From NCBI GenBank assembly GCA_030649835.1, contig JAUSES010000013.1, forward strand, positions 9,317 to 73,316: 64,000 nucleotides of DNA, written 5' to 3'. The notes under the pieces are model-generated. The model searched no databases, was not told the origin of the DNA, and was given only the letters and a program-made list of their open reading frames with translations. Made by a program: the position numbers and the translations under genes. Source of the DNA: a bacterium. GTDB taxonomy: Bacteria; Patescibacteriota; Minisyncoccia; Phycocordibacterales; UBA1550. Positions 3,447 to 24,833 of this stretch are shown piece after piece; position 1 is the stretch's first letter; each line of letters starts with the position of its first letter.

Positions 3447-3941
3447 ATGAAAAATAAAGGTTTTACACTTATCGAACTCTTGGTGGTTATCGCAATCATC
3501 GGTATCCTCGCATCTGTTGTTCTCGCATCGCTCAACAGCGCTCGTGCAAAGGGTGCGGATGCAGCGGTTAAGGCAAGTTTGGCCAATGCTCGCGCTCAAG
3601 CAGAGCTTCTTTATGACACACCAGGCTGTTATACAACTGCTGGTGGGACATGTCTTGCTGCTGGATTCCCCAAGGCAACATGTACCTACGCTACAGCAAA
3701 CACACTCTTCAATGATACAAAAATATCACAACAGATTGCTGCTGCTATAGCTGCAACAAACGGGCTCTCATCCTGTATGGAAGCAGCAAATGATACAGCC
3801 TGGGCAACCGCGGTACAGTTAAAAGTTAACCCTCTAACCGCATGGTGCGTGGACAGTACCGGCGCCTCAAAGCAAGTAACAATGGCAACGAATGATCAAG
3901 CAGGTATTGACCTAATGATTGGAGCATCAGTTTGTATTTAA
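3447..3941 (+). CDS. Type IV major pilin (PilA-like prepilin).
   Basis: MKNKG|FTLIELLVVIAIIGILA is a class III signal: short leader, F+1, E+5, hydrophobic helix. Cys pairs lie in the C-terminal region. An upstream TGGTATAAT -10 at about 3330 is followed by a roughly 100-nt leader with a hairpin. Confidence 0.8.
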   Translation: MKNKGFTLIELLVVIAIIGILASVVLASLNSARAKGADAAVKASLANARAQAELLYDTPGCYTTAGGTCLAAGFPKATCTYATANTLFNDTKISQQIAAAIAATNGLSSCMEAANDTAWATAVQLKVNPLTAWCVDSTGASKQVTMATNDQAGIDLMIGASVCI

Positions 3942-4007
3942 TTCGTAGAAAGTGAATAGAAAGGGGAAACGGTATCAGGTACCCTTTCCAAACAAAACAC
4001 TCGCCAT

Positions 4008-4068
4008 CCAGCGGGTGTTTTGTTTTGCTCGCCCCGCGCTACTCCTACCGAGGTTAAACCTCGGTGGA
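4008..4068 (+). repeat. REP-like element, copy 1. It contains the palindromic hairpin CGAGGTTAAACCTCG.
   Basis: A 61-nt segment (ccagcgggtgttttg…ctcctaccgaggttaaacctcggtgga) is near-identical to 4818..4880. It lies directly upstream of the RAYT gene. Confidence 0.7.
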
Positions 4069-4095
4069 GACGCGTGTTTGTGCTACTATGAATGT

Positions 4096-4767
4096 ATGTC
4101 ACGAAATATAGATTTCTCTATCAACGAGTATTACCATCTTTATAACCGCGGTGTAGATAAACGCACAGTGTTTATGGATGCTGAGGATTACAAGAGATTC
4201 ACCGCGCTACTTTATCTTGCCAATAATACAAACAGCGTACACATGAATAATTTAAACCACCGAGGTTTAACCTCGCTGGACGTACTTTCGATCGAGAAGG
4301 GAGACACTCTTGTTGATATTGGGGCATATTGTTTGATGCCAAATCATTTCCATGTTCTCGTGCGAGAAAAAATTGAGAGTGGGATCAGTATATTTATGCA
4401 AAAAGTAATGACAGGATACACGATGTACTTTAATAAAAAATACAAAAGAACGGGAGCGCTTTTTGGTGGCACCTTTAAAGCACAGCATGTTGCTCGTGAC
4501 ACGTATCTAAAATATCTTTTTGCGTATATTCATTTGAACCCAATCAAACTTGTAGATTCGAACTGGAAGGAAAATGGTATCTCTGATAAAAAGAAGGCTG
4601 AGAGGTATCTGAATTCTTATCTGTATTCGAGTTACCTCGACTTTAAAGGAACAGACCGAGAAGAAAAGTCGATTTTGAACAAAGATGCATTTCCACAATA
4701 TTTTAGTACCAATGTTGAATTTCGCAGTTTTGTATCTTGGTGGCTAAATTTTAAGGACGAAAAATAG
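4096..4767 (+). CDS. REP-associated tyrosine transposase (RAYT) / IS200-like Y1 (HuH) transposase.
   Basis: The HuH motif CLMPNHFHVLV and the downstream YIHLNPIK/…Y region are typical of the IS200/IS605 TnpA / RAYT family. The in-frame ATG at 4096 gives about 223 aa. The listed ORF from 3952 would run through the REP element. Confidence 0.65.
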   Translation: MSRNIDFSINEYYHLYNRGVDKRTVFMDAEDYKRFTALLYLANNTNSVHMNNLNHRGLTSLDVLSIEKGDTLVDIGAYCLMPNHFHVLVREKIESGISIFMQKVMTGYTMYFNKKYKRTGALFGGTFKAQHVARDTYLKYLFAYIHLNPIKLVDSNWKENGISDKKKAERYLNSYLYSSYLDFKGTDREEKSILNKDAFPQYFSTNVEFRSFVSWWLNFKDEK

Positions 4768-13605: not shown

Positions 13606-13634
13606 AAGACCTTGCAAAACCTAACAACTATGAT
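13606..13634 (+). promoter_or_regulatory. Sigma70-like promoter TTGCAA-N16-TATAGT, about 40 bp upstream of the initiator tRNA.
   Basis: ttgcaa aacctaacaactatga tatagt. Confidence 0.4.
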
Positions 13635-13676
13635 ATAGTTGGGACTCTTAAAGCGAGTATGACTCGCAGTAGATAT

Positions 13677-13747
13677 AGCGGGGTAGAGAAGCGGTATCTC
13701 ATCAGGCTCATAACCTGAAGACGCCCGTTCGATTCGGGCCCCCGCAA
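13677..13747 (+). tRNA. Probable initiator tRNA-fMet (anticodon CAT).
   Basis: The cloverleaf was folded by hand. The anticodon loop is cUCAUAa. A11:U24 is present. Positions 1 and 72 are unpaired (A1·A72). The 3' acceptor strand CCCCGCA with an A discriminator matches the bacterial initiator tRNA as I recall it. The T-loop is TTCGATT. CCA is not encoded. Confidence 0.6.
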
Positions 13748-13812
13748 CACGAATAAAGTACTCTATCTTCGCGAACCTTGCTTATTTTAGAACAGCTGAT
13801 ATAATGGTATAT

Positions 13813-14493
13813 ATGGCTAAGTTTAAAGATAAAATAAAGGCACGTCAATTGAGAAAAAAAGGATGGAGCATAGGAGCTATTGCTGAAGAACTTGGGATTT
13901 CTAAATCATCCGCAAGTATTTGGTGCTTAGATGTTGTGTTGACGAAAAGGCAAACAAATAGACTTAAAGAAAATTCAATACGCGCTGGACATAAAGGTAG
14001 AATGATGGGGGCAGCAATGAACCACAAGAAGAAACTAGATGCAGTAGAATCCTCCAAACTAAAAGCCATTGCTCTCGTTGATCAAATGACACAAAGAGAC
14101 CTGTTTATGCTCGGGATAGGTCTTTATTGGGGGGAAGGAACGAAAAGTGAAAGGAGCGCACTTGCAGTTGTTAATTCTGACCCAGAAATTATACTCGTTA
14201 TGAAGAAGTGGTTTGAAATAATCTTCAATGTAAAAGACGAAGATTTTATGCCAAGGATATTTATAAACGAGATCCACCAACCTAGGATAAAAAAAGTTGT
14301 CGAATACTGGTCCTCCTTACTCAAATTGCCTAAGGAGCAGTTTGGAAATCAAGTATTGTTAAAAATAAAGCAAAAAAAGGTATATGAGAATTATGACTCA
14401 TATTATGGTATTCTATCGCTAAAGGTACGGAAGAGTTCTAAGTTGAAATATGAAGTACTTGGATTGATTGATGCAGTAAAAAAGAAGTATTAA
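13813..14493 (+). CDS. HTH-domain protein with a single LAGLIDADG-like motif (putative homing-endonuclease-like protein).
   Basis: N-terminal HTH (GWSIGAIAEELGISKSSASIW). The motif DLFMLGIGLYWGEGTKS resembles motif 2 (LRGLYEAEGSF) of the double-motif enzyme at 23913. The gene stops 6 nt before tRNA-Met. The listed ORF starts at 13804; the second Met at 13813 follows a TATAAT box. Confidence 0.4.
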   Translation: MAKFKDKIKARQLRKKGWSIGAIAEELGISKSSASIWCLDVVLTKRQTNRLKENSIRAGHKGRMMGAAMNHKKKLDAVESSKLKAIALVDQMTQRDLFMLGIGLYWGEGTKSERSALAVVNSDPEIILVMKKWFEIIFNVKDEDFMPRIFINEIHQPRIKKVVEYWSSLLKLPKEQFGNQVLLKIKQKKVYENYDSYYGILSLKVRKSSKLKYEVLGLIDAVKKKY

Positions 14494-14499
14494 ATTTAT

Positions 14500-14571
14500 G
14501 CCGGTGTAGTTCAATGGTCAGAACGAGGGACTCATAAGCCCTAGACAGTGGTTCGATTCCACTCATCGGCA
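14500..14571 (+). tRNA. tRNA-Met (anticodon CAT; elongator Met or lysidine-modified tRNA-Ile2).
   Basis: 7-bp acceptor stem gccggtg/catcggc with a G1:C72 pair. Anticodon loop cUCAUAa, T-loop TTCGATT, discriminator A. CCA is not encoded. Confidence 0.75.
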
Positions 14572-14575
14572 CAAA

Positions 14576-14625
14576 CAGTAGAAAGTGCGCCCTCGTGAGG
14601 GAGCACTTTCTACGGTTTGTGTCTT
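14576..14625 (+). terminator. Long hairpin following tRNA-Met (gtagaaagtgc…gcactttctac with inner ccctc/gaggg).
   Basis: Read directly. It is followed by ggtttgtg. Confidence 0.45.
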
Positions 14626-14692
14626 AGTGAATCGAACCGCGGGCCGCAGCACTCGAAGAGAGTGCGTAGGTTTCGAGCTCACCAGAGCGAGA

Positions 14693-14713
14693 GGCGATTC
14701 CACTCATCGGCAC
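14693..14713 (+). repeat. Direct repeat of the tRNA-Met 3' end (gattccactcatcggcac), about 140 bp downstream of the gene.
   Basis: 18-19 nt are identical to 14554..14572. An inverted T-arm-like fragment (gtgaatcgaacc) lies at 14627..14638. Confidence 0.75.
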
Positions 14714-14782
14714 CCGCAGTTTGTTTAGCGGACTGTTTCCTGTTAGAATGCGCAAGGGTTATTTTAGTTGAATTTATGTAAT

Positions 14783-14856
14783 GCGGTCGTAGCTCAGCTG
14801 GTTAGAGCGCCCGCCTGTCACGCGGGAGGTCGTGGGTTCAAGTCCCATCGACCGCG
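14783..14856 (+). tRNA. tRNA-Asp (anticodon GTC).
   Basis: Acceptor stem gcggtcg/cgaccgc. Anticodon loop cUGUCAc. D-loop agctcagctggttagagc. Discriminator G. Confidence 0.85.
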
Positions 14857-14857
14857 C

Positions 14858-14897
14858 AAATACAAAAGATACCTAGTGCTACTGCACTAGGTATCTT
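14858..14897 (+). terminator. Rho-independent-type terminator hairpin after tRNA-Asp.
   Basis: acaaaagatacctagtgc tac tgcactaggtatcttttgtattc. Confidence 0.6.
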
Positions 14898-15026
14898 TTG
14901 TATTCTTCCGCGTACGGGACTTGAAAGGCGGAGACATCCCGAGGCTTCTGCGAGGGAGTCGAGCCGGGGTCGAGAGTACTTAGGCTTTTTCGAGCGAAGC
15001 AAAGAAAAAGACTTAGTAACTCGTGA

Positions 15027-15055
15027 CCAAGTCCCATCGACCGCGCAAATACAAA
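15027..15055 (+). repeat. Exact 29-nt direct repeat of the tRNA-Asp 3' end plus trailer (caagtcccatcgaccgcgcaaatacaaaa).
   Basis: Identical to 14839..14867. It is followed by a second, different terminator hairpin (15052..15091, aaaatgagtccaacgc…gtgttggactcatttt). Confidence 0.85.
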
Positions 15056-15143
15056 ATGAGTCCAACGCAGAAGTGTTGGACTCATTTTGTTTAATGATTG
15101 AAAGAATGAGCTAAATAGTGTATTGTGTCGTGGTGTTGAATAA

Positions 15144-15170
15144 GCCGATGTAGCTGTTTTGGTAGGCAAG
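15144..15170 (+). repeat. Truncated 5' pseudo-copy of tRNA-Thr(GGT) (gccgatgtagctg…ggtagg), about 65 bp upstream of the intact gene.
   Basis: Compared by eye with 15211 onward. The same taag upstream context is present. Confidence 0.55.
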
Positions 15171-15210: not shown

Positions 15211-15286
15211 GCCGATGTAGCTCAGTTGGTAGAGTGCGTCCTTGGTAAGGACGAGGTCTCCGGTTCAATCCCGGACATCGGCTCCA
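15211..15286 (+). tRNA. tRNA-Thr (anticodon GGT).
   Basis: Acceptor stem gccgatg/catcggc. Anticodon stem cgtcc/ggacg with loop tUGGUAa. T-loop TTCAATC. Discriminator T. CCA is encoded. Confidence 0.85.
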
Positions 15287-15324
15287 GTAAATAATTGACA
15301 TACAGTCAGTTATTTATTTTGTGC

Positions 15325-15345
15325 GCCGATGTCTGGGATTGAACC
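15325..15345 (-). repeat. Inverted copy of the tRNA-Thr(GGT) T-arm/acceptor 3' end.
   Basis: gccgatgtctgggattgaacc is the reverse complement of ggttcaatcccggacatcggc, with 1 mismatch. Confidence 0.75.
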
Positions 15346-15440
15346 AAGAAAGGGGTCGGGAAACGGGAGTTTCCTGTGGAGGAAAATGTTAGAAACCGTG
15401 GGTTTCTAAAGCGGGGTGAGCCTGCGAGCGAGCAGTGATC

Positions 15441-15458
15441 TCCCGGACATCGGCTCCA
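15441..15458 (+). repeat. Direct repeat of the tRNA-Thr(GGT) 3' end (tcccggacatcggctcca), about 170 bp downstream of the gene.
   Basis: Identical to 15269..15286, including the CCA. Confidence 0.75.
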
Positions 15459-15553
15459 TGATAGTTGAAAGCCTGTAAAGTCCTTAAGGTCAAAAAGTGA
15501 ATGCATTTTTGCAATCACTTTTGACTTTACACTTTGGACTTTTGACTGTTTGT

Positions 15554-22423: not shown

Positions 22424-22900
22424 CAAAACAATTATGCGTTTATAGATAGCCAAAATGTAAATTTGAGTATTCAGTCAATTGGATGAAGACTTGACTTCGC
22501 TCGTTTTCGAATATATCTTGCAGAAAAATATGGTGTCACGAAAGCGTTCCTATTTGTTGGTTATATCGAAGGAAACAATGATCTCTATATCGCGTTGCAA
22601 GGAATGGGGTATCTTTGTGTTTTCAAACCGACACTAACATACAAAGATGGCACAACAAAAGGGAACTGCGACGCAGAACTTGTTTTGCAGGCAATGATCG
22701 AATATGAAAACTATGACGCAACAGTTATTGTTACGGGGGATGGTGATTTCTATTGCCTTGTGAAATATCTATTAGAGAAAAATAAATTAAAAAGAGTTTT
22801 AGTTCCCAATATTTTAAAATACTCTGCACTCCTTAAAAGATTTGGAGGTAAACACCTTAGTTTTATGAATAACTTAAGGACTCTCTTGGAGCGTAAATAA
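22424..22900 (+). pseudogene. NYN/LabA-like domain gene interrupted by an in-frame TGA (at 22484..22486) at a position where Trp is expected.
   Basis: In a single frame the sequence reads MKKLQNNYAFIDSQNVNLSIQSIG*RLDFARFRIYLAEKYG…TGDGDFYCLV. The TGDGDF motif is typical of the NYN domain. TGA is a genuine stop elsewhere in the window. Confidence 0.55.
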
Positions 22901-23017: not shown

Positions 23018-23905
23018 ATGCCTGATAAATATACAGCAGTCTGGGTGTCGCATTCTTCGATGGGGGACTTTATCAAGTGCCCGCGTTCATATTACCTGCA
23101 CAATATGTACAAGGACCCGAAGACTGGGCACAAGGTGTCGCTTGTCACCCCCCATATGTCACTAGGTATTGCGGTGCACGAGGTGCTCGAGGGGCTCGCG
23201 GAGTTTCCTTCTGAGTCGCGGATGGGCCATGACCTACTTGCAATCTATGAAAAAGAGTGGAAAAAAGTGACCGGCAAGAAAGGCGGATTTTTAAACGATA
23301 CTGAAGAAGCGGAGTTTAAAGCACGTGGCGTAGTGATGCTCAAAAAAGTTGTTGAAGACCCACGTTTTCTCGTAAACAAATGTATCAAGCTTCCACAAGA
23401 CAAAATGCCCTGCAACTTTTATTTGAGTGAGGAGCACAATATTATTTTAAATGGCCTCGTGGATTGGATAGAGTACTTGCCCGAGACCGACTCACTTCAT
23501 CTGGTGGATTTCAAAACAGGAAAAGTAGAGGAAAAAGAAAGCTCGCTTCAGCTTCCAATTTATCTCCTCCTCTGTGATGCGCTTCATAAAAAAAGAAAAG
23601 TCATCAAAGCAAGCTACTGGTATTTGGAGAGCGATAAGCTTGTTGAAAAGAAATTGCCTGACATTGATACTGCGCGCCGTGATGTGCTTGCCGCAGCGGT
23701 AAAGGTAAAGGACGCGCGCGACATTGCAAAAAGAGAAGGTGTAGAAAAAGCATTTGTTTGTCCACAAGGAGTGTATAATCCTCAAACCAAAGAAGGCGGA
23801 TGCATGTCTTGCCGCCCATATGAATTTATTTTGAACAGTGACTCGAGGGTGGAGTTTGTTGGGGTGGGGGGGTTTAGTCAGGATATGTACGTGTTGATAA
23901 GATAA
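23018..23905 (+). CDS. PD-(D/E)XK nuclease of the Cas4/RecB/AddB type with a four-Cys cluster.
   Basis: One N-terminal Cys (IKCPRSY) plus three C-terminal Cys (CPQG…CMSCRPYEF). Motifs DWIEY…VDFKTGK (D/E-K) and QLPIYLL (QhxxY). A TTGTCA-N17-TATAAT promoter is upstream. There is no CRISPR context. Confidence 0.55.
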   Translation: MPDKYTAVWVSHSSMGDFIKCPRSYYLHNMYKDPKTGHKVSLVTPHMSLGIAVHEVLEGLAEFPSESRMGHDLLAIYEKEWKKVTGKKGGFLNDTEEAEFKARGVVMLKKVVEDPRFLVNKCIKLPQDKMPCNFYLSEEHNIILNGLVDWIEYLPETDSLHLVDFKTGKVEEKESSLQLPIYLLLCDALHKKRKVIKASYWYLESDKLVEKKLPDIDTARRDVLAAAVKVKDARDIAKREGVEKAFVCPQGVYNPQTKEGGCMSCRPYEFILNSDSRVEFVGVGGFSQDMYVLIR

Positions 23906-23912
23906 GCCTTTT

Positions 23913-24707
23913 TTGCTAGTATCCATGAATATTGGGAAGGTTACTGAAGGTAGCCAATTTTTTGCGAGATCGTCTAATGGTCAACAAATATGCTATAATT
24001 CTTTTATGCCAAGCAATTGGAATAAAGGAGAGACCAAAACTACAAACCTTTCTGTAAGGAAGATTTCGGATACGATGAGGTTGAGGAAGATTGATAATTT
24101 TAAAATATGGAGAGACGGGATGAAGATGGAGGGGAAGGTTAAGTCAGAGTATCCGCAACTTGAGAAAAACGGAGACCTAGCAGAACTTATTGGTGTTGTT
24201 CTTGGTGATGGGCACATTTGTGTGTACCCTCGATGCGAGGAACTGCGACTGATATCAAATTCAAATAGCCCAGGGTTTATCAAAAGGTATGCAAAAATTA
24301 TGGAGCAGGTATTTAGCAAGAAGCCATATGTCATCTCGAGCGGTCAATCCAACTCTACCAAGATTGGTTTTTATGAAAAATTCATAAGTAAAAGGCTCGG
24401 TGTTCCAACTGGATCACGAAAAGACCTCGAAATTAAGGTCCCCAAATGGATTTCAAAAAATAGGGAATACGTGGTAAGGTATCTTCGTGGTTTATATGAG
24501 GCAGAAGGGAGTTTCTGTGTTCACGAGCCGACATATACCCACAAGTTCCTTTTCGCGAATAGAAACGAGTCGATGCTCAATAATGTTTATGAGTTAATGC
24601 AGGGTCTGGGTTTCCACCCACATAGAAGCAAAGACCAGATTCAAATTTCAAAAAAAGAAGAGGTGTATGGGGCGATGAAAGTATTAGGGTTTAGGGACTA
24701 CAAGTAA
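23913..24707 (+). CDS. Double-motif LAGLIDADG homing endonuclease (free-standing).
   Basis: LAELIGVVLGDGH (motif 1) and YLRGLYEAEGSF (motif 2). The stop lies 5 nt before tRNA-Gln. The real start may be the in-frame Met at 24006. Confidence 0.75.
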   Translation: MLVSMNIGKVTEGSQFFARSSNGQQICYNSFMPSNWNKGETKTTNLSVRKISDTMRLRKIDNFKIWRDGMKMEGKVKSEYPQLEKNGDLAELIGVVLGDGHICVYPRCEELRLISNSNSPGFIKRYAKIMEQVFSKKPYVISSGQSNSTKIGFYEKFISKRLGVPTGSRKDLEIKVPKWISKNREYVVRYLRGLYEAEGSFCVHEPTYTHKFLFANRNESMLNNVYELMQGLGFHPHRSKDQIQISKKEEVYGAMKVLGFRDYK

Positions 24708-24712
24708 ATATT

Positions 24713-24781
24713 GCGGGTTGGTGTAATGGTAGCACGTCGCCCTCTGGAGGCGAAAATTGGGGTTCGAGCCCCTGACCCGCA
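24713..24781 (+). tRNA. tRNA-Gln (anticodon CTG).
   Basis: Acceptor stem gcgggtt/gacccgc. Anticodon stem tcgcc/ggcga with loop cUCUGga. T-loop TTCGAGC. Discriminator A. The exact ends are uncertain by ±2 nt. Confidence 0.7.
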
Positions 24782-24833
24782 GCTAAGTTGAGCTAAGTAT
24801 TGAAGCCCTAGACGCAACAGAATCAACAATATT

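What the first reader, a model, noticed from the sequence alone, without database searches (positions are those of the whole stretch)
13677..14571. LAGLIDADG-type endonuclease genes sit just 5–7 nt upstream of tRNA genes at two separate loci
The HTH/LAGLIDADG-like ORF ending at 14493 is followed by tRNA-Met at 14500. The double-motif LAGLIDADG gene ending at 24707 is followed by tRNA-Gln at 24713. The first locus also has the initiator tRNA (13677–13747) immediately upstream of the endonuclease gene, behind its own promoter.
The paired arrangement recalls free-standing homing endonuclease genes lodged in tRNA clusters, such as the phage T4 seg genes. It suggests that these endonucleases are mobile and use tRNA-adjacent sites. 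They may also be co-transcribed with the tRNAs.
Basis: partly seen in the sequence, partly recalled or inferred. Interest (0 to 1): 0.55.

Follow-up and report, generated by a model that had tools for sequence, protein, structure and literature searches.

The report
Endonuclease genes riding on tRNA genes
Two selfish-looking endonuclease genes in this small groundwater-type bacterium are welded to the front ends of tRNA genes. One of them has split the resident glutamine tRNA gene and brought its own replacement copy, an arrangement that recurs in hundreds of related genomes yet comes and goes between close relatives.

Summary
ORF1 (13813-14493) ends 6 nt before a tRNA-Met(CAU), and ORF2 (24006-24707) ends 4 nt before tRNA-Gln(CUG). 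An initiator-like tRNA lies 64 nt upstream of ORF1.

The adjacency is a family property, not chance:
- ORF2 homologues: 77 of 77 loci are followed by tRNA-Gln(CUG), 0-15 nt away.
- ORF1 homologues: 81 of 85 are followed by a tRNA that is specific to the subfamily.
- A third LAGLIDADG family in relatives: 8 of 8 precede tRNA-Asp.

Both genes are nevertheless sporadic among ten syntenic close relatives. ORF1 is intact in 2, a pseudogene in 1 and absent in 7. ORF2 is present only in the window and absent from the five others where the site can be seen.

Upstream of ORF2 sits a 20-nt 5' stub of a tRNA-Gln gene. It is 20/20 identical to the intact, ORF2-less allele of relatives. The functional tRNA downstream is a different allele. 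So ORF2 plus its tRNA is a cassette inserted into the resident tRNA gene.

ORF2 is a bona fide two-motif LAGLIDADG protein. The LAGLIDADG assignment of ORF1 remains unproven.

Best reading: these are free-standing homing-endonuclease cassettes that target tRNA genes. This is a new architectural variant of a known kind.

The parts
13612..13639 (+). Promoter-like site (TTGCAA-16-TATAGT with TG) ahead of the initiator-like tRNA
   Evidence: Consensus scan. A match to a consensus only.
13677..13748 (+). Initiator-like tRNA(CAU), without an intron in this genome
   Evidence: It is 96-100% identical in ten close relatives. In at least 17 other family loci the homologous gene carries a group I intron in the anticodon loop (RF00028).
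13800..13805 (+). TATAAT -10 box, 7 nt before the ORF1 start codon (leaderless-type promoter)
   Evidence: Sequence read. Of 57 ORF1-family loci, 21 have a -10-like box 5-8 nt before the ATG.
13813..14493 (+). ORF1: 226 aa, with an N-terminal helix-turn-helix, a long helix and a C-terminal alpha/beta domain carrying a GLYWGEG motif. Candidate single-motif LAGLIDADG-like endonuclease.
   Evidence: The family has at least 557 species genomes and 3486 clusters at E<=1e-10.
14500..14572 (+). tRNA-Met(CAU), non-initiator, 'allele A', 6 nt after the ORF1 stop
   Evidence: Of 85 family members, 81 are followed directly by a tRNA. Allele A and allele B segregate among close relatives.
14570..14621 (+). 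25-nt-arm palindrome (terminator-like hairpin) starting in the last bases of tRNA-Met
   Evidence: the repeat finder inverted repeat I1.
23894..23922 (+). Promoter-like site (TTGATA-17-TAGTAT with TG): the resident tRNA-Gln promoter, homologous to the segment ahead of the intact tRNA-Gln in L163 and L165
23962..23981 (+). 5' stub of a tRNA-Gln gene (TTGCGAGATCGTCTAATGGT; tRNA positions 1-19 plus one leader base)
   Evidence: It is 20/20 identical to L161 18917-18936, while flanking gene DNA is 75% identical. The same 5' sequence occurs in the intact tRNA-Gln of L164 and L165. A stub is present in 48 of 49 assessable family loci.
23991..23999 (+). Extended -10 box TGcTATAAT, 6 nt before the ORF2 start codon (leaderless-type promoter)
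   Evidence: Sequence read. Of 40 family loci, 33 have a -10-like box 5-8 nt before the ATG (27 at exactly 6 nt).
24006..24707 (+). ORF2: 233-aa two-motif LAGLIDADG endonuclease with both acidic residues kept (LGDGH; GLYEAEGS)
   Evidence: Pfam PF14528 scores 25.1 bits against a cut-off of 22.5. Conservation is shown. The PDB profile hits I-HjeMI and I-AniI.
24712..24783 (+). Functional tRNA-Gln(CUG), 'allele Y', carried with ORF2
   Evidence: It is only 76% identical to the L161 tRNA-Gln, whereas the two CAU tRNAs are 100% identical between the window and L161.

Best explanation
Both ORFs are free-standing, selfish homing-endonuclease-type genes that persist as small 'ORF + tRNA' cassettes at the 5' end of single-copy tRNA genes in a Patescibacteria (Yonathbacteria-like) genome.

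ORF2, steps shown:
- A two-motif LAGLIDADG gene with its own extended -10 promoter sits between a 5' stub of the resident tRNA-Gln gene (cut off in the D-arm at about position 19-23) and a complete tRNA-Gln of a different allele.
- Close relatives carry the uninterrupted 'stub-type' allele and no ORF2.

ORF2, steps inferred:
- The enzyme cuts the susceptible tRNA-Gln allele in or near the D-arm.
- The break is repaired from an ORF2-bearing chromosome taken up from a relative. The conserved stub and the tRNA body serve as homology arms. ORF2 and a resistant tRNA allele are copied in.
- The tRNA is then transcribed through ORF2 and released by 5' processing.

ORF1, steps shown:
- It belongs to a very large HTH-plus-GLYWGEG-domain family. 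Each subfamily abuts or overlaps the 5' end of one particular tRNA.
- The gene is intact, decayed or absent at the same site in close relatives.
- It occurs only with one of two very different tRNA-Met alleles.

ORF1, steps inferred:
- It is also an endonuclease that spreads by intron-less homing, co-converting its tRNA allele.
For: Family-wide linkage to tRNAs:
- ORF2 family: 77 of 77 loci are followed by tRNA-Gln(CUG) at 0-15 nt (one at -11).
- ORF1 family: 81 of 85 are followed by a tRNA (CAU 69, Gln-UUG 8, Ile-UAU 2, Arg-UCG 1, Lys-CUU 1), including three Streptomyces genomes.
- ORF3 family: 8 of 8 precede tRNA-Asp.

Sporadic presence at one syntenic site among close relatives, including a split ORF1 pseudogene in L162.

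Insertion scar for ORF2:
- The stub is 20/20 identical to the intact allele of relatives.
- Stubs occur in 48 of 49 loci, while shuffled controls do not exceed the cut-off score.

Allele replacement:
- Three states of tRNA-Gln are seen: X alone, stub + ORF2 + Y, and Y alone.
- tRNA-Met shows B alone, ORF1 + A, and A alone.
- Meanwhile tRNA-fMet is 96-100% identical in all these genomes.

Catalytic motifs: both acidic residues are invariant or nearly so in the ORF2 family. E108 and G109 are invariant in the ORF1 family.

Link of the ORF1 family to mobile introns: three paralogues and at least 14 orthologues lie within about 100 nt of a group I intron-bearing initiator tRNA.

Co-transcription:
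- A -10 box lies 6-7 nt before each ATG.
- The ORF-tRNA gap has no room for a promoter, and no conserved -10 lies just before the tRNA.
- In many relatives the ORF1 reading frame runs into the tRNA. Protein C-termini such as VGVAQLVRASHS are translations of the tRNA-Met gene.
Against: - No nuclease activity, cut site or transfer event has been observed.
- Both families sit in conserved synteny across deep divergences. Their identity tracks neighbouring housekeeping genes (ORF2 55-61% against PyrG 53-61%). That pattern also fits long vertical inheritance under host-level selection.
- Some ORF2-bearing genomes have a functional tRNA-Gln whose D-arm equals the stub consensus (for example L151). 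The D-arm alone therefore cannot be the whole recognition site.
- ORF1 has no tRNA stub.
- ORF1 has no Pfam LAGLIDADG hit. The I-DmoI profile hit disappears when only the C-domain is used. Foldseek gives no significant match.
Confidence: 0.68

Rival explanations
1. The ORFs are domesticated DNA-binding proteins (WhiA-like, or HTH regulators). They are inherited vertically and control expression of their own tRNA operon. The tRNA stub and the conserved upstream motifs are operators, not insertion scars.
For: - Both families are conserved across the phylum in conserved synteny, and their identity tracks housekeeping genes.
- Stub positions 8-23 are more conserved than the D-arm of the functional tRNAs.
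- Recurrent GAACC...GGTTC and AGTACT motifs surround ORF1-family promoters.
- ORF1 has a clear HTH.
- Some sources label ORF2 relatives as WhiA.
Against: - The genes are dispensable. They are absent from most close relatives, and one copy is a pseudogene.
- ORF2 keeps both catalytic acidic residues, which WhiA lacks (the WhiA feature is from established knowledge).
- The acceptor part of the stub matches the relatives' own tRNA allele 20/20, as expected for a scar.
Confidence: 0.14
2. ORF1 is the trans-acting partner of the ORF-less group I intron found in the neighbouring initiator tRNA gene of many relatives (collaborative homing). Its target is the intron insertion site of tRNA-fMet, and the downstream tRNA-Met is only a neighbour.
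For: - At least 17 loci at the Rfam gathering score, plus 5 found by nhmmer only, have a group I intron in the initiator-like tRNA.
- That tRNA's 5' end lies within about 100 nt of an ORF1-family gene (the intron itself 65-130 nt from the ORF start). The orientation is usually divergent.
- The collaborative homing pathway is described in PMC3984707.
Against: - The window and about 28 other loci have ORF1 next to an intron-less initiator tRNA.
- All ten close relatives lack the intron whether or not ORF1 is present.
- The constant partner of the family is the downstream tRNA, which differs by subfamily.
Confidence: 0.12
3. The ORFs are remnants of integrase-type genomic islets that use tRNA genes as attachment sites.
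For: tRNA genes are classic integration sites (established knowledge). Duplicated tRNA 3' ends occur downstream of tRNA-Met, tRNA-Asp and tRNA-Thr in the window.
Against: - No integrase lies at either locus.
- The inserts are only about 0.8 kb.
- The ORF2 scar is a 5' fragment of the tRNA, and the insert lies upstream of the tRNA, the opposite of att-site geometry.
Confidence: 0.03
4. The adjacency is a chance consequence of a gene-dense genome.
For: Intergenic spacers are short throughout the window.
Against: The linkage counts are 77/77, 81/85 and 8/8. Unrelated ORFs end next to only about 9 of the roughly 200 remaining tRNAs.
Confidence: 0.01

Closest known systems
Free-standing homing endonucleases and 'intronless homing' in T-even phages (for example the GIY-YIG enzyme SegB, which acts on tRNA-containing DNA)
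   Same: - The gene lies outside any intron or intein, within or next to tRNA genes.
- Presence among relatives is sporadic.
- Flanking alleles are co-converted.
- The donor is protected by sequence differences.
Sources: PMC3984707 Fig. 5c; PMC13096335.
   Different: - The nuclease family differs (LAGLIDADG or LAGLIDADG-like, not GIY-YIG).
- The host is a bacterial chromosome, not a phage.
- The ORF abuts or overlaps the tRNA 5' end.
- ORF2 splits the resident tRNA gene and supplies a whole replacement tRNA.
- The families are stable enough to be found in hundreds of species.
Fungal mitochondrial endonuclease-gene insertions that duplicate the end of a host gene (atp6 and cob C-terminal duplications flanking LAGLIDADG ORFs)
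   Same: The endonuclease gene travels with a copy of part of the host gene. The displaced fragment remains beside it as a scar (PMC6279837).
   Different: There the duplicated piece is the 3' end of a protein-coding gene. Here the scar is the 5' end of a tRNA gene, and the replacement lies downstream of the endonuclease gene.
LAGLIDADG genes inside group I introns and insertion sequences of CPR rRNA genes
   Same: The same phylum and the same nuclease superfamily, targeting highly conserved RNA genes (PMC11270868; PMC8172020).
   Different: No intron surrounds ORF1 or ORF2: Rfam finds no group I intron in the window. The targets are tRNA genes, and the tRNA is restored by a DNA copy rather than by splicing.
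Collaborative (trans) homing of ORF-less group I introns by a neighbouring free-standing endonuclease
   Same: [quoted passage not shown] The concept is described in PMC3984707.
   Different: The window has no intron. The family's constant partner is the downstream tRNA.
WhiA (LAGLIDADG-derived transcription factor)
   Same: LAGLIDADG scaffold combined with DNA binding. Some database entries name ORF2 relatives WhiA.
   Different: ORF2 keeps both catalytic acidic residues and has no C-terminal HTH. It is dispensable among close relatives.

Membership tests
LAGLIDADG endonucleases (ORF2) | Two LAGLIDADG motifs, each ending in a conserved acidic residue | tested here: met
   LAELIGVVLGDGH and YLRGLYEAEGS. 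D68 and E165 are invariant and E167 is at least 90% conserved in 32 sequences. Pfam PF14528 scores 25.1 bits against a cut-off of 22.5.
LAGLIDADG endonucleases (ORF2) | Sequence relationship to solved LAGLIDADG enzymes | tested here: met
   The family profile hits I-HjeMI (3uvf, E=0.003) and I-AniI (3eh8, E=0.008) and nothing else. hhalign places both motifs in register with the canonical ORF3 family.
LAGLIDADG endonucleases (ORF2) | Site-specific double-strand cleavage of DNA | not testable with these tools
   Needs purified protein and X- and Y-allele tRNA-Gln substrates.
LAGLIDADG endonucleases (ORF1) | Match to a curated LAGLIDADG profile (PF00961, PF14528, PF03161) | tested here: not met
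   Only HTH families match. None of 37 family members hits a LAGLIDADG Pfam model at E<=0.1.
LAGLIDADG endonucleases (ORF1) | Remote sequence similarity around a LAGLIDADG-type motif with a terminal acidic residue | tested here: inconclusive
   - The full-length profile hits I-DmoI at E=0.004, aligning GLYWGEG with GLYVAEG.
- hhalign against the ORF2 family gives E=0.004, aligning the motif with GLYEAEG. That is no worse than the true pair ORF2/ORF3 at E=0.011.
- The C-domain-only profile finds nothing, and hhalign against ORF3 finds nothing.
LAGLIDADG endonucleases (ORF1) | alpha-beta-beta-alpha-beta-beta-alpha fold | tested here: inconclusive
   The C-domain model has pLDDT 90.7 and a compatible order of elements. 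Foldseek shows I-DmoI with the highest probability (0.94) and TM (0.42), but E=0.17. The best-TM viral hits are LAGLIDADG or intein-bearing proteins at E>=0.37.
Free-standing (intron-less) homing endonuclease gene | Not embedded in an intron or intein | tested here: met
   No group I or II intron is found in the window at Rfam gathering or E<=5. Both ORFs are stand-alone.
Free-standing (intron-less) homing endonuclease gene | Presence/absence polymorphism at the same site in close relatives, with decayed copies | tested here: met
   ORF1: 2 intact, 1 split pseudogene, 7 absent. ORF2: 1 present, 5 absent.
Free-standing (intron-less) homing endonuclease gene | Insertion interrupts or replaces a conserved target; flanking markers are co-converted | tested here: met
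   - ORF2: a tRNA-Gln 5' stub plus a replacement allele.
- ORF1: no stub, but it is linked to one of two tRNA-Met alleles.
Free-standing (intron-less) homing endonuclease gene | The enzyme cleaves the allele that lacks the gene | not testable with these tools
   Biochemical assay required.
WhiA-type domesticated LAGLIDADG regulator | Loss of catalytic acidic residues and a C-terminal HTH domain | tested here: not met
   ORF2 keeps the acidic residues and has no HTH. ORF1 has an N-terminal HTH and a single domain.
Seg-type (GIY-YIG) phage endonucleases | GIY-YIG catalytic domain | tested here: not met
   No GIY-YIG match for either ORF in Pfam or PHROGs.

The most novel reading that the evidence does not exclude
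Endonuclease-tRNA cassettes are a general, previously undescribed way of life for selfish genes in Patescibacteria.
- Several nuclease families are involved: two LAGLIDADG families, the HTH-GLYWGEG family and possibly an HNH family.
- Each family has captured the transcription of one essential single-copy tRNA and drives turnover of tRNA alleles between lineages.
- Because many members have no stop codon before the tRNA, 5' processing of the tRNA would turn the messenger into a non-stop mRNA. That would couple tRNA maturation to throttling of the endonuclease.
- The scattered tRNA fragments and tandem partial tRNA copies in these clusters would be the scars of this traffic.
Probability: 0.3. 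Interest if true: 0.8.

Novelty: new variant of a known kind. Interest (0 to 1): 0.64.

Why it matters
- **A new architecture.** If confirmed, homing endonuclease genes can colonise bacterial tRNA genes without an intron, by carrying a spare copy of the tRNA. As far as the literature I could search shows, this was known only by analogy, from phage tRNA regions and fungal mitochondrial protein genes.
- **tRNA allele differences explained.** It would explain why otherwise near-identical Patescibacteria genomes carry very different alleles of the same tRNA.
- **Annotation.** It would explain why gene callers produce proteins whose C-termini are translated tRNA sequence.
- **New reagents.** It would supply large natural families (thousands of clusters) of compact sequence-specific nucleases with known candidate targets.
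- **Evidence of gene flow.** It gives indirect evidence for DNA exchange and recombination among uncultured ultra-small bacteria.

Tried and rejected
1. **Pfam and NCBIfam on ORF1.** Only HTH models matched. PHROGs gave nothing useful.
2. **Foldseek with the full-length ORF1 model.** The long linker helix made it uninformative. The C-domain model against PDB and BFVD gave no significant hit.
3. **A tRNA stub upstream of ORF1-family genes.** Local alignments found only the neighbouring initiator tRNA. The recurrent GAAC(C) motif does not co-vary with the D-arm of the linked tRNA. For the Streptomyces and other paralogues the scores are at noise level.
4. **A possible tRNA-Asp stub in the window.** I first read CCTGT upstream of tRNA-Asp (14739-14749) as a stub. 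All relatives have the same TGn-extended -10 promoter there, so I rejected it. The 'CCTGTCA' ahead of ORF3 genes is therefore left open.
5. **A 'conserved cargo tRNA'.** The tRNA-Gln genes linked to ORF2 are as diverse as the species. The cassette does not carry one fixed tRNA sequence.
6. **An internal promoter just ahead of tRNA-Gln.** There is no position-specific -10 signal.
7. **Rfam on the structured spacers after the tRNAs.** Only spurious microRNA-like hairpin hits appeared.
8. **Literature.** No paper describing tRNA-linked LAGLIDADG cassettes in bacteria was found in five searches. The library is incomplete.
Full report
**1. Observation**

ARAGORN and Rfam agree on six tRNA genes in the window, all on the + strand. 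Among them are CAU tRNAs at 13677-13748 and 14500-14572 and tRNA-Gln(CUG) at 24712-24783.

ORF1 ends at 14493, 6 nt before the second CAU tRNA. ORF2 ends at 24707, 4 nt before tRNA-Gln. The deposited proteins and the family alignments fix the true starts at ATG 13813 (226 aa) and ATG 24006 (233 aa).

The first CAU tRNA is initiator-like and has a promoter-like site at 13612-13639. The window comes from a Patescibacteria genome. Its neighbours are GatA, RF2, FtsE/X and PyrG, and the closest GatA proteins are labelled Yonathbacteria or Paceibacterota.

**2. What the proteins are**

ORF2 is a two-motif LAGLIDADG protein.
- Pfam PF14528 scores above its cut-off.
- Both motif-terminal acidic residues are invariant or nearly so in 32 homologues.
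- The only PDB profile hits are the LAGLIDADG enzymes I-HjeMI and I-AniI.

ORF1 has a clear N-terminal helix-turn-helix, a 45-residue helix and a well-predicted C-terminal alpha/beta domain with an invariant GLYWGEG motif. Its LAGLIDADG nature is not established.
- No Pfam LAGLIDADG hit appears in 37 members.
- A full-length profile hits I-DmoI at E=0.004, but the hit vanishes with the C-domain alone.
- hhalign against the ORF2 family gives E=0.004 with the motifs in register. That is as good as the true pair ORF2/ORF3 at E=0.011. Against ORF3, however, it finds nothing.
- In Foldseek, I-DmoI has the best probability (0.94) and TM (0.42) but E=0.17. In the viral library the best-TM hits are LAGLIDADG or intein-bearing proteins, none significant.

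I put the chance that this is a LAGLIDADG-derived domain at about 60%.

**3. The adjacency is a family trait**

Almost all are Patescibacteria; three are Streptomyces. The family holds 3486 clusters at E<=1e-10.

In 81 of 85 members with room to judge, a tRNA follows directly on the same strand. The counts are CAU 69, Gln-UUG 8 (including the Streptomyces genomes), Ile-UAU 2, Arg-UCG 1 and Lys-CUU 1.

The gap is often negative. The reading frame runs into the tRNA and stops at the TAG of tRNA positions 8-10 or the TAA of the anticodon loop. Deposited protein C-termini such as VGVAQLVRASHS are translated tRNA-Met sequence.

For ORF2, 77 of 77 loci have tRNA-Gln(CUG) 0-15 nt downstream, with a mode of 3 (one at -11).

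A third, canonical LAGLIDADG family (Pfam 53.9 and 30.2 bits) turned up in relatives. It precedes tRNA-Asp in 8 of 8 cases.

In L165 a weak HNH-like ORF ends at the TAG of tRNA-Thr(CGU).

Across 354 tRNAs, 153 of the 162 abutting ORFs belong to these three families.

**4. Old lineages**

Both families sit in conserved synteny: ORF1 between GatA and RF2-FtsE-FtsX, and ORF2 near FtsX/PyrG. Their identity to the window copies tracks that of housekeeping neighbours. Taken alone this would suggest ancestral, vertically inherited genes.

**5. Sporadic among close relatives**

I fetched genomes chosen by GatA similarity (77-88%), not by the ORFs. All share the GatC-GatA-hyp-tRNA cluster-RF2 order.

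ORF1:
- Intact in the window and L161.
- Split into two pieces in L162.
- Absent in L163-L169, where the two CAU tRNAs are only 72-208 nt apart.

ORF2:
- Present only in the window.
- L161, L163, L164, L165 and L167 have tRNA-Gln(CUG) with its own promoter region and no ORF2.

This is the presence/absence/decay pattern expected of a selfish endonuclease gene.

**6. The ORF2 insertion scar**

Immediately upstream of the ORF2 -10 box lies TTGCGAGATCGTCTAATGGT (23962-23981), the first 19 positions of a tRNA-Gln gene. It is 20/20 identical to the 5' end of the intact tRNA-Gln of L161, L164 and L165 ('allele X'). The adjacent PD-(D/E)XK gene is only 75% identical at the DNA level.

The functional tRNA after ORF2 is a different allele ('Y'), 76% identical to X. 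By contrast, tRNA-fMet and tRNA-Met are 100% identical between the window and L161.

A promoter-like segment upstream of the stub (23894-23922) is homologous to the segment ahead of the intact tRNA-Gln in L163 and L165.

The same layout is found in 48 of 49 assessable family loci: stub ending at tRNA position 19-23, an A-rich tract, a TGnTATAAT box, an ATG 6 nt later, the ORF, and then the tRNA. Shuffled controls do not exceed the cut-off score.

Stub positions 8-23 (TCGTCTAATGGTAGGA) are more conserved than the D-arms of the functional tRNAs. Positions 1-7 vary or decay.

L163 carries allele Y without ORF2. So three states exist: X alone, stub + ORF2 + Y, and Y alone.

**7. ORF1 parallels and differences**

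No stub was found. However, tRNA-Met has two very different alleles among these relatives.
- Allele A occurs in the window, L161, L162, L164 and L167.
- Allele B occurs in L163, L165, L166, L168 and L169.
- ORF1 occurs only with A.

Again there are three states: B alone, ORF1 + A, and A alone.

[quoted passage not shown] Three of these neighbours are second, paralogous copies that have no downstream tRNA. This ties the family to classic mobile-intron territory. It also raises the collaborative-homing rival (PMC3984707). That rival is weakened because the window and all ten close relatives have the intron-less tRNA.

**8. Mechanism**

Shown:
- the anatomy of the cassettes;
- the empty, occupied and decayed states;
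- the allele replacement;
- the retained catalytic motifs of ORF2.

Inferred:
- The enzyme cuts the ORF-less allele.
- Repair from an ORF-bearing homologue copies the ORF and its tRNA allele, with the stub and tRNA body as homology arms. Patescibacteria are thought to take up DNA; that is my own knowledge.
- Each ORF is transcribed from a -10 box 6-7 nt before its ATG as a leaderless mRNA.
- The tRNA is made by read-through and 5' processing. The gap has no room for a promoter, and no conserved -10 lies before the tRNA.

Where no stop codon precedes the tRNA, processing would leave a non-stop mRNA. This is speculation.

**9. Comparison with known systems**

- **Phage free-standing endonucleases and intronless homing.** The closest functional analogue. 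SegB acts on tRNA-containing DNA and recombines through tRNA/seg microhomology (PMC3984707; PMC13096335).
- **Fungal mitochondrial insertions.** The closest structural analogue. An endonuclease gene is flanked by a duplicated end of the host gene (PMC6279837).
- **CPR rRNA introns.** LAGLIDADG genes there are known (PMC11270868; PMC8172020). I found no description of tRNA-linked cassettes.

**10. Verdict**

[quoted passage not shown] It is widespread in an uncultured phylum and its predictions are directly testable.

Noticed in passing
window 14573-14782, 14858-15060, 15287-15460: After tRNA-Met, tRNA-Asp and tRNA-Thr(GGU) comes a terminator-like palindrome. It is followed by a 110-170-nt GC-rich element bounded by an inverted and a direct copy of that tRNA's own 3' end: 14554-14579 / 14695-14720; 14839-14867 / 15028-15056 (29/29 identical); 15262-15282 / 15325-15345 / 15441-15458. 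In L163, which has the other tRNA-Met allele, the element's ends follow that allele instead. Rfam gives only spurious hairpin hits. Function unknown: a processed small RNA, a tRNA-minihelix mimic, or recombination scars.
   Followed up: partly
window 15140-15165; L161 11754-11777; L164 after tRNA-Asp (two copies); L161 10808-11036: There is a 5' fragment of tRNA-Thr(GGU) 67 nt upstream of the real gene. Relatives have tandem 103-nt units that each begin with the 5' part of tRNA-Asp. These resemble the ORF2-type stub with the ORF missing, or segmental amplification at tRNA genes as reported for SegB (PMC13096335).
   Followed up: partly
L162 13419-14051; also L057, L001, L026, L042, L068, L007, L003: A third, canonical two-motif LAGLIDADG family (Pfam 53.9 and 30.2 bits) sits directly 5' of tRNA-Asp(GTC) in 8 of 8 full-length cases. 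The stop codon often lies at tRNA positions 8-10. The window has no copy.
   Followed up: yes
L165 14087-14554: A 155-aa cysteine-rich ORF with a weak HNH_3 match (E=0.006, below cut-off) ends at the TAG of positions 8-10 of tRNA-Thr(CGU). Possibly a fourth nuclease family using the same niche.
   Followed up: partly
L013 ~3650-3925 (-), L019 3502-3800 (+), and 15 other loci: ORF-less group I introns (RF00028, 51-95 bits) interrupt the anticodon loop of the initiator-like tRNA in many Patescibacteria. ARAGORN misses these genes. Further group I hits lie downstream of tRNA-Met in L014, L016, L022, L023, L034 and L051.
   Followed up: partly
L071, L077, L080 (Streptomyces), match at 4001-4690: ORF1-family genes with a duplicated N-terminal HTH lie 6-22 nt upstream of tRNA-Gln(UUG) in three Streptomyces genomes. 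In L077 this is next to genes I take, from their translated sequences (no family search run), to be glmU and prs. The tRNA linkage of this family therefore crosses phyla.
   Followed up: partly
ORF1-family upstream regions, for example L072, L062, L060, L054, L079, L056, L061: Recurrent GAACC...GGTTC inverted repeats bracket the -10 box, and an AGTACT palindrome lies just after it. These look like operators and would fit autoregulation by the HTH protein.
   Followed up: no
window 22595-22900: A 101-aa ORF matches only the C-terminal half of the NYN domain (profile positions 57-122 of 145). It may be a truncated gene or have a mis-set start.
   Followed up: no
L115, L117, L135, L152, L157 and others, about 3763-3880: In a subgroup of ORF2 loci the exact tRNA-Gln stub lies about 130-240 nt upstream of the tblastn match rather than 20-45 nt. 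The intervening sequence was not examined.
   Followed up: no
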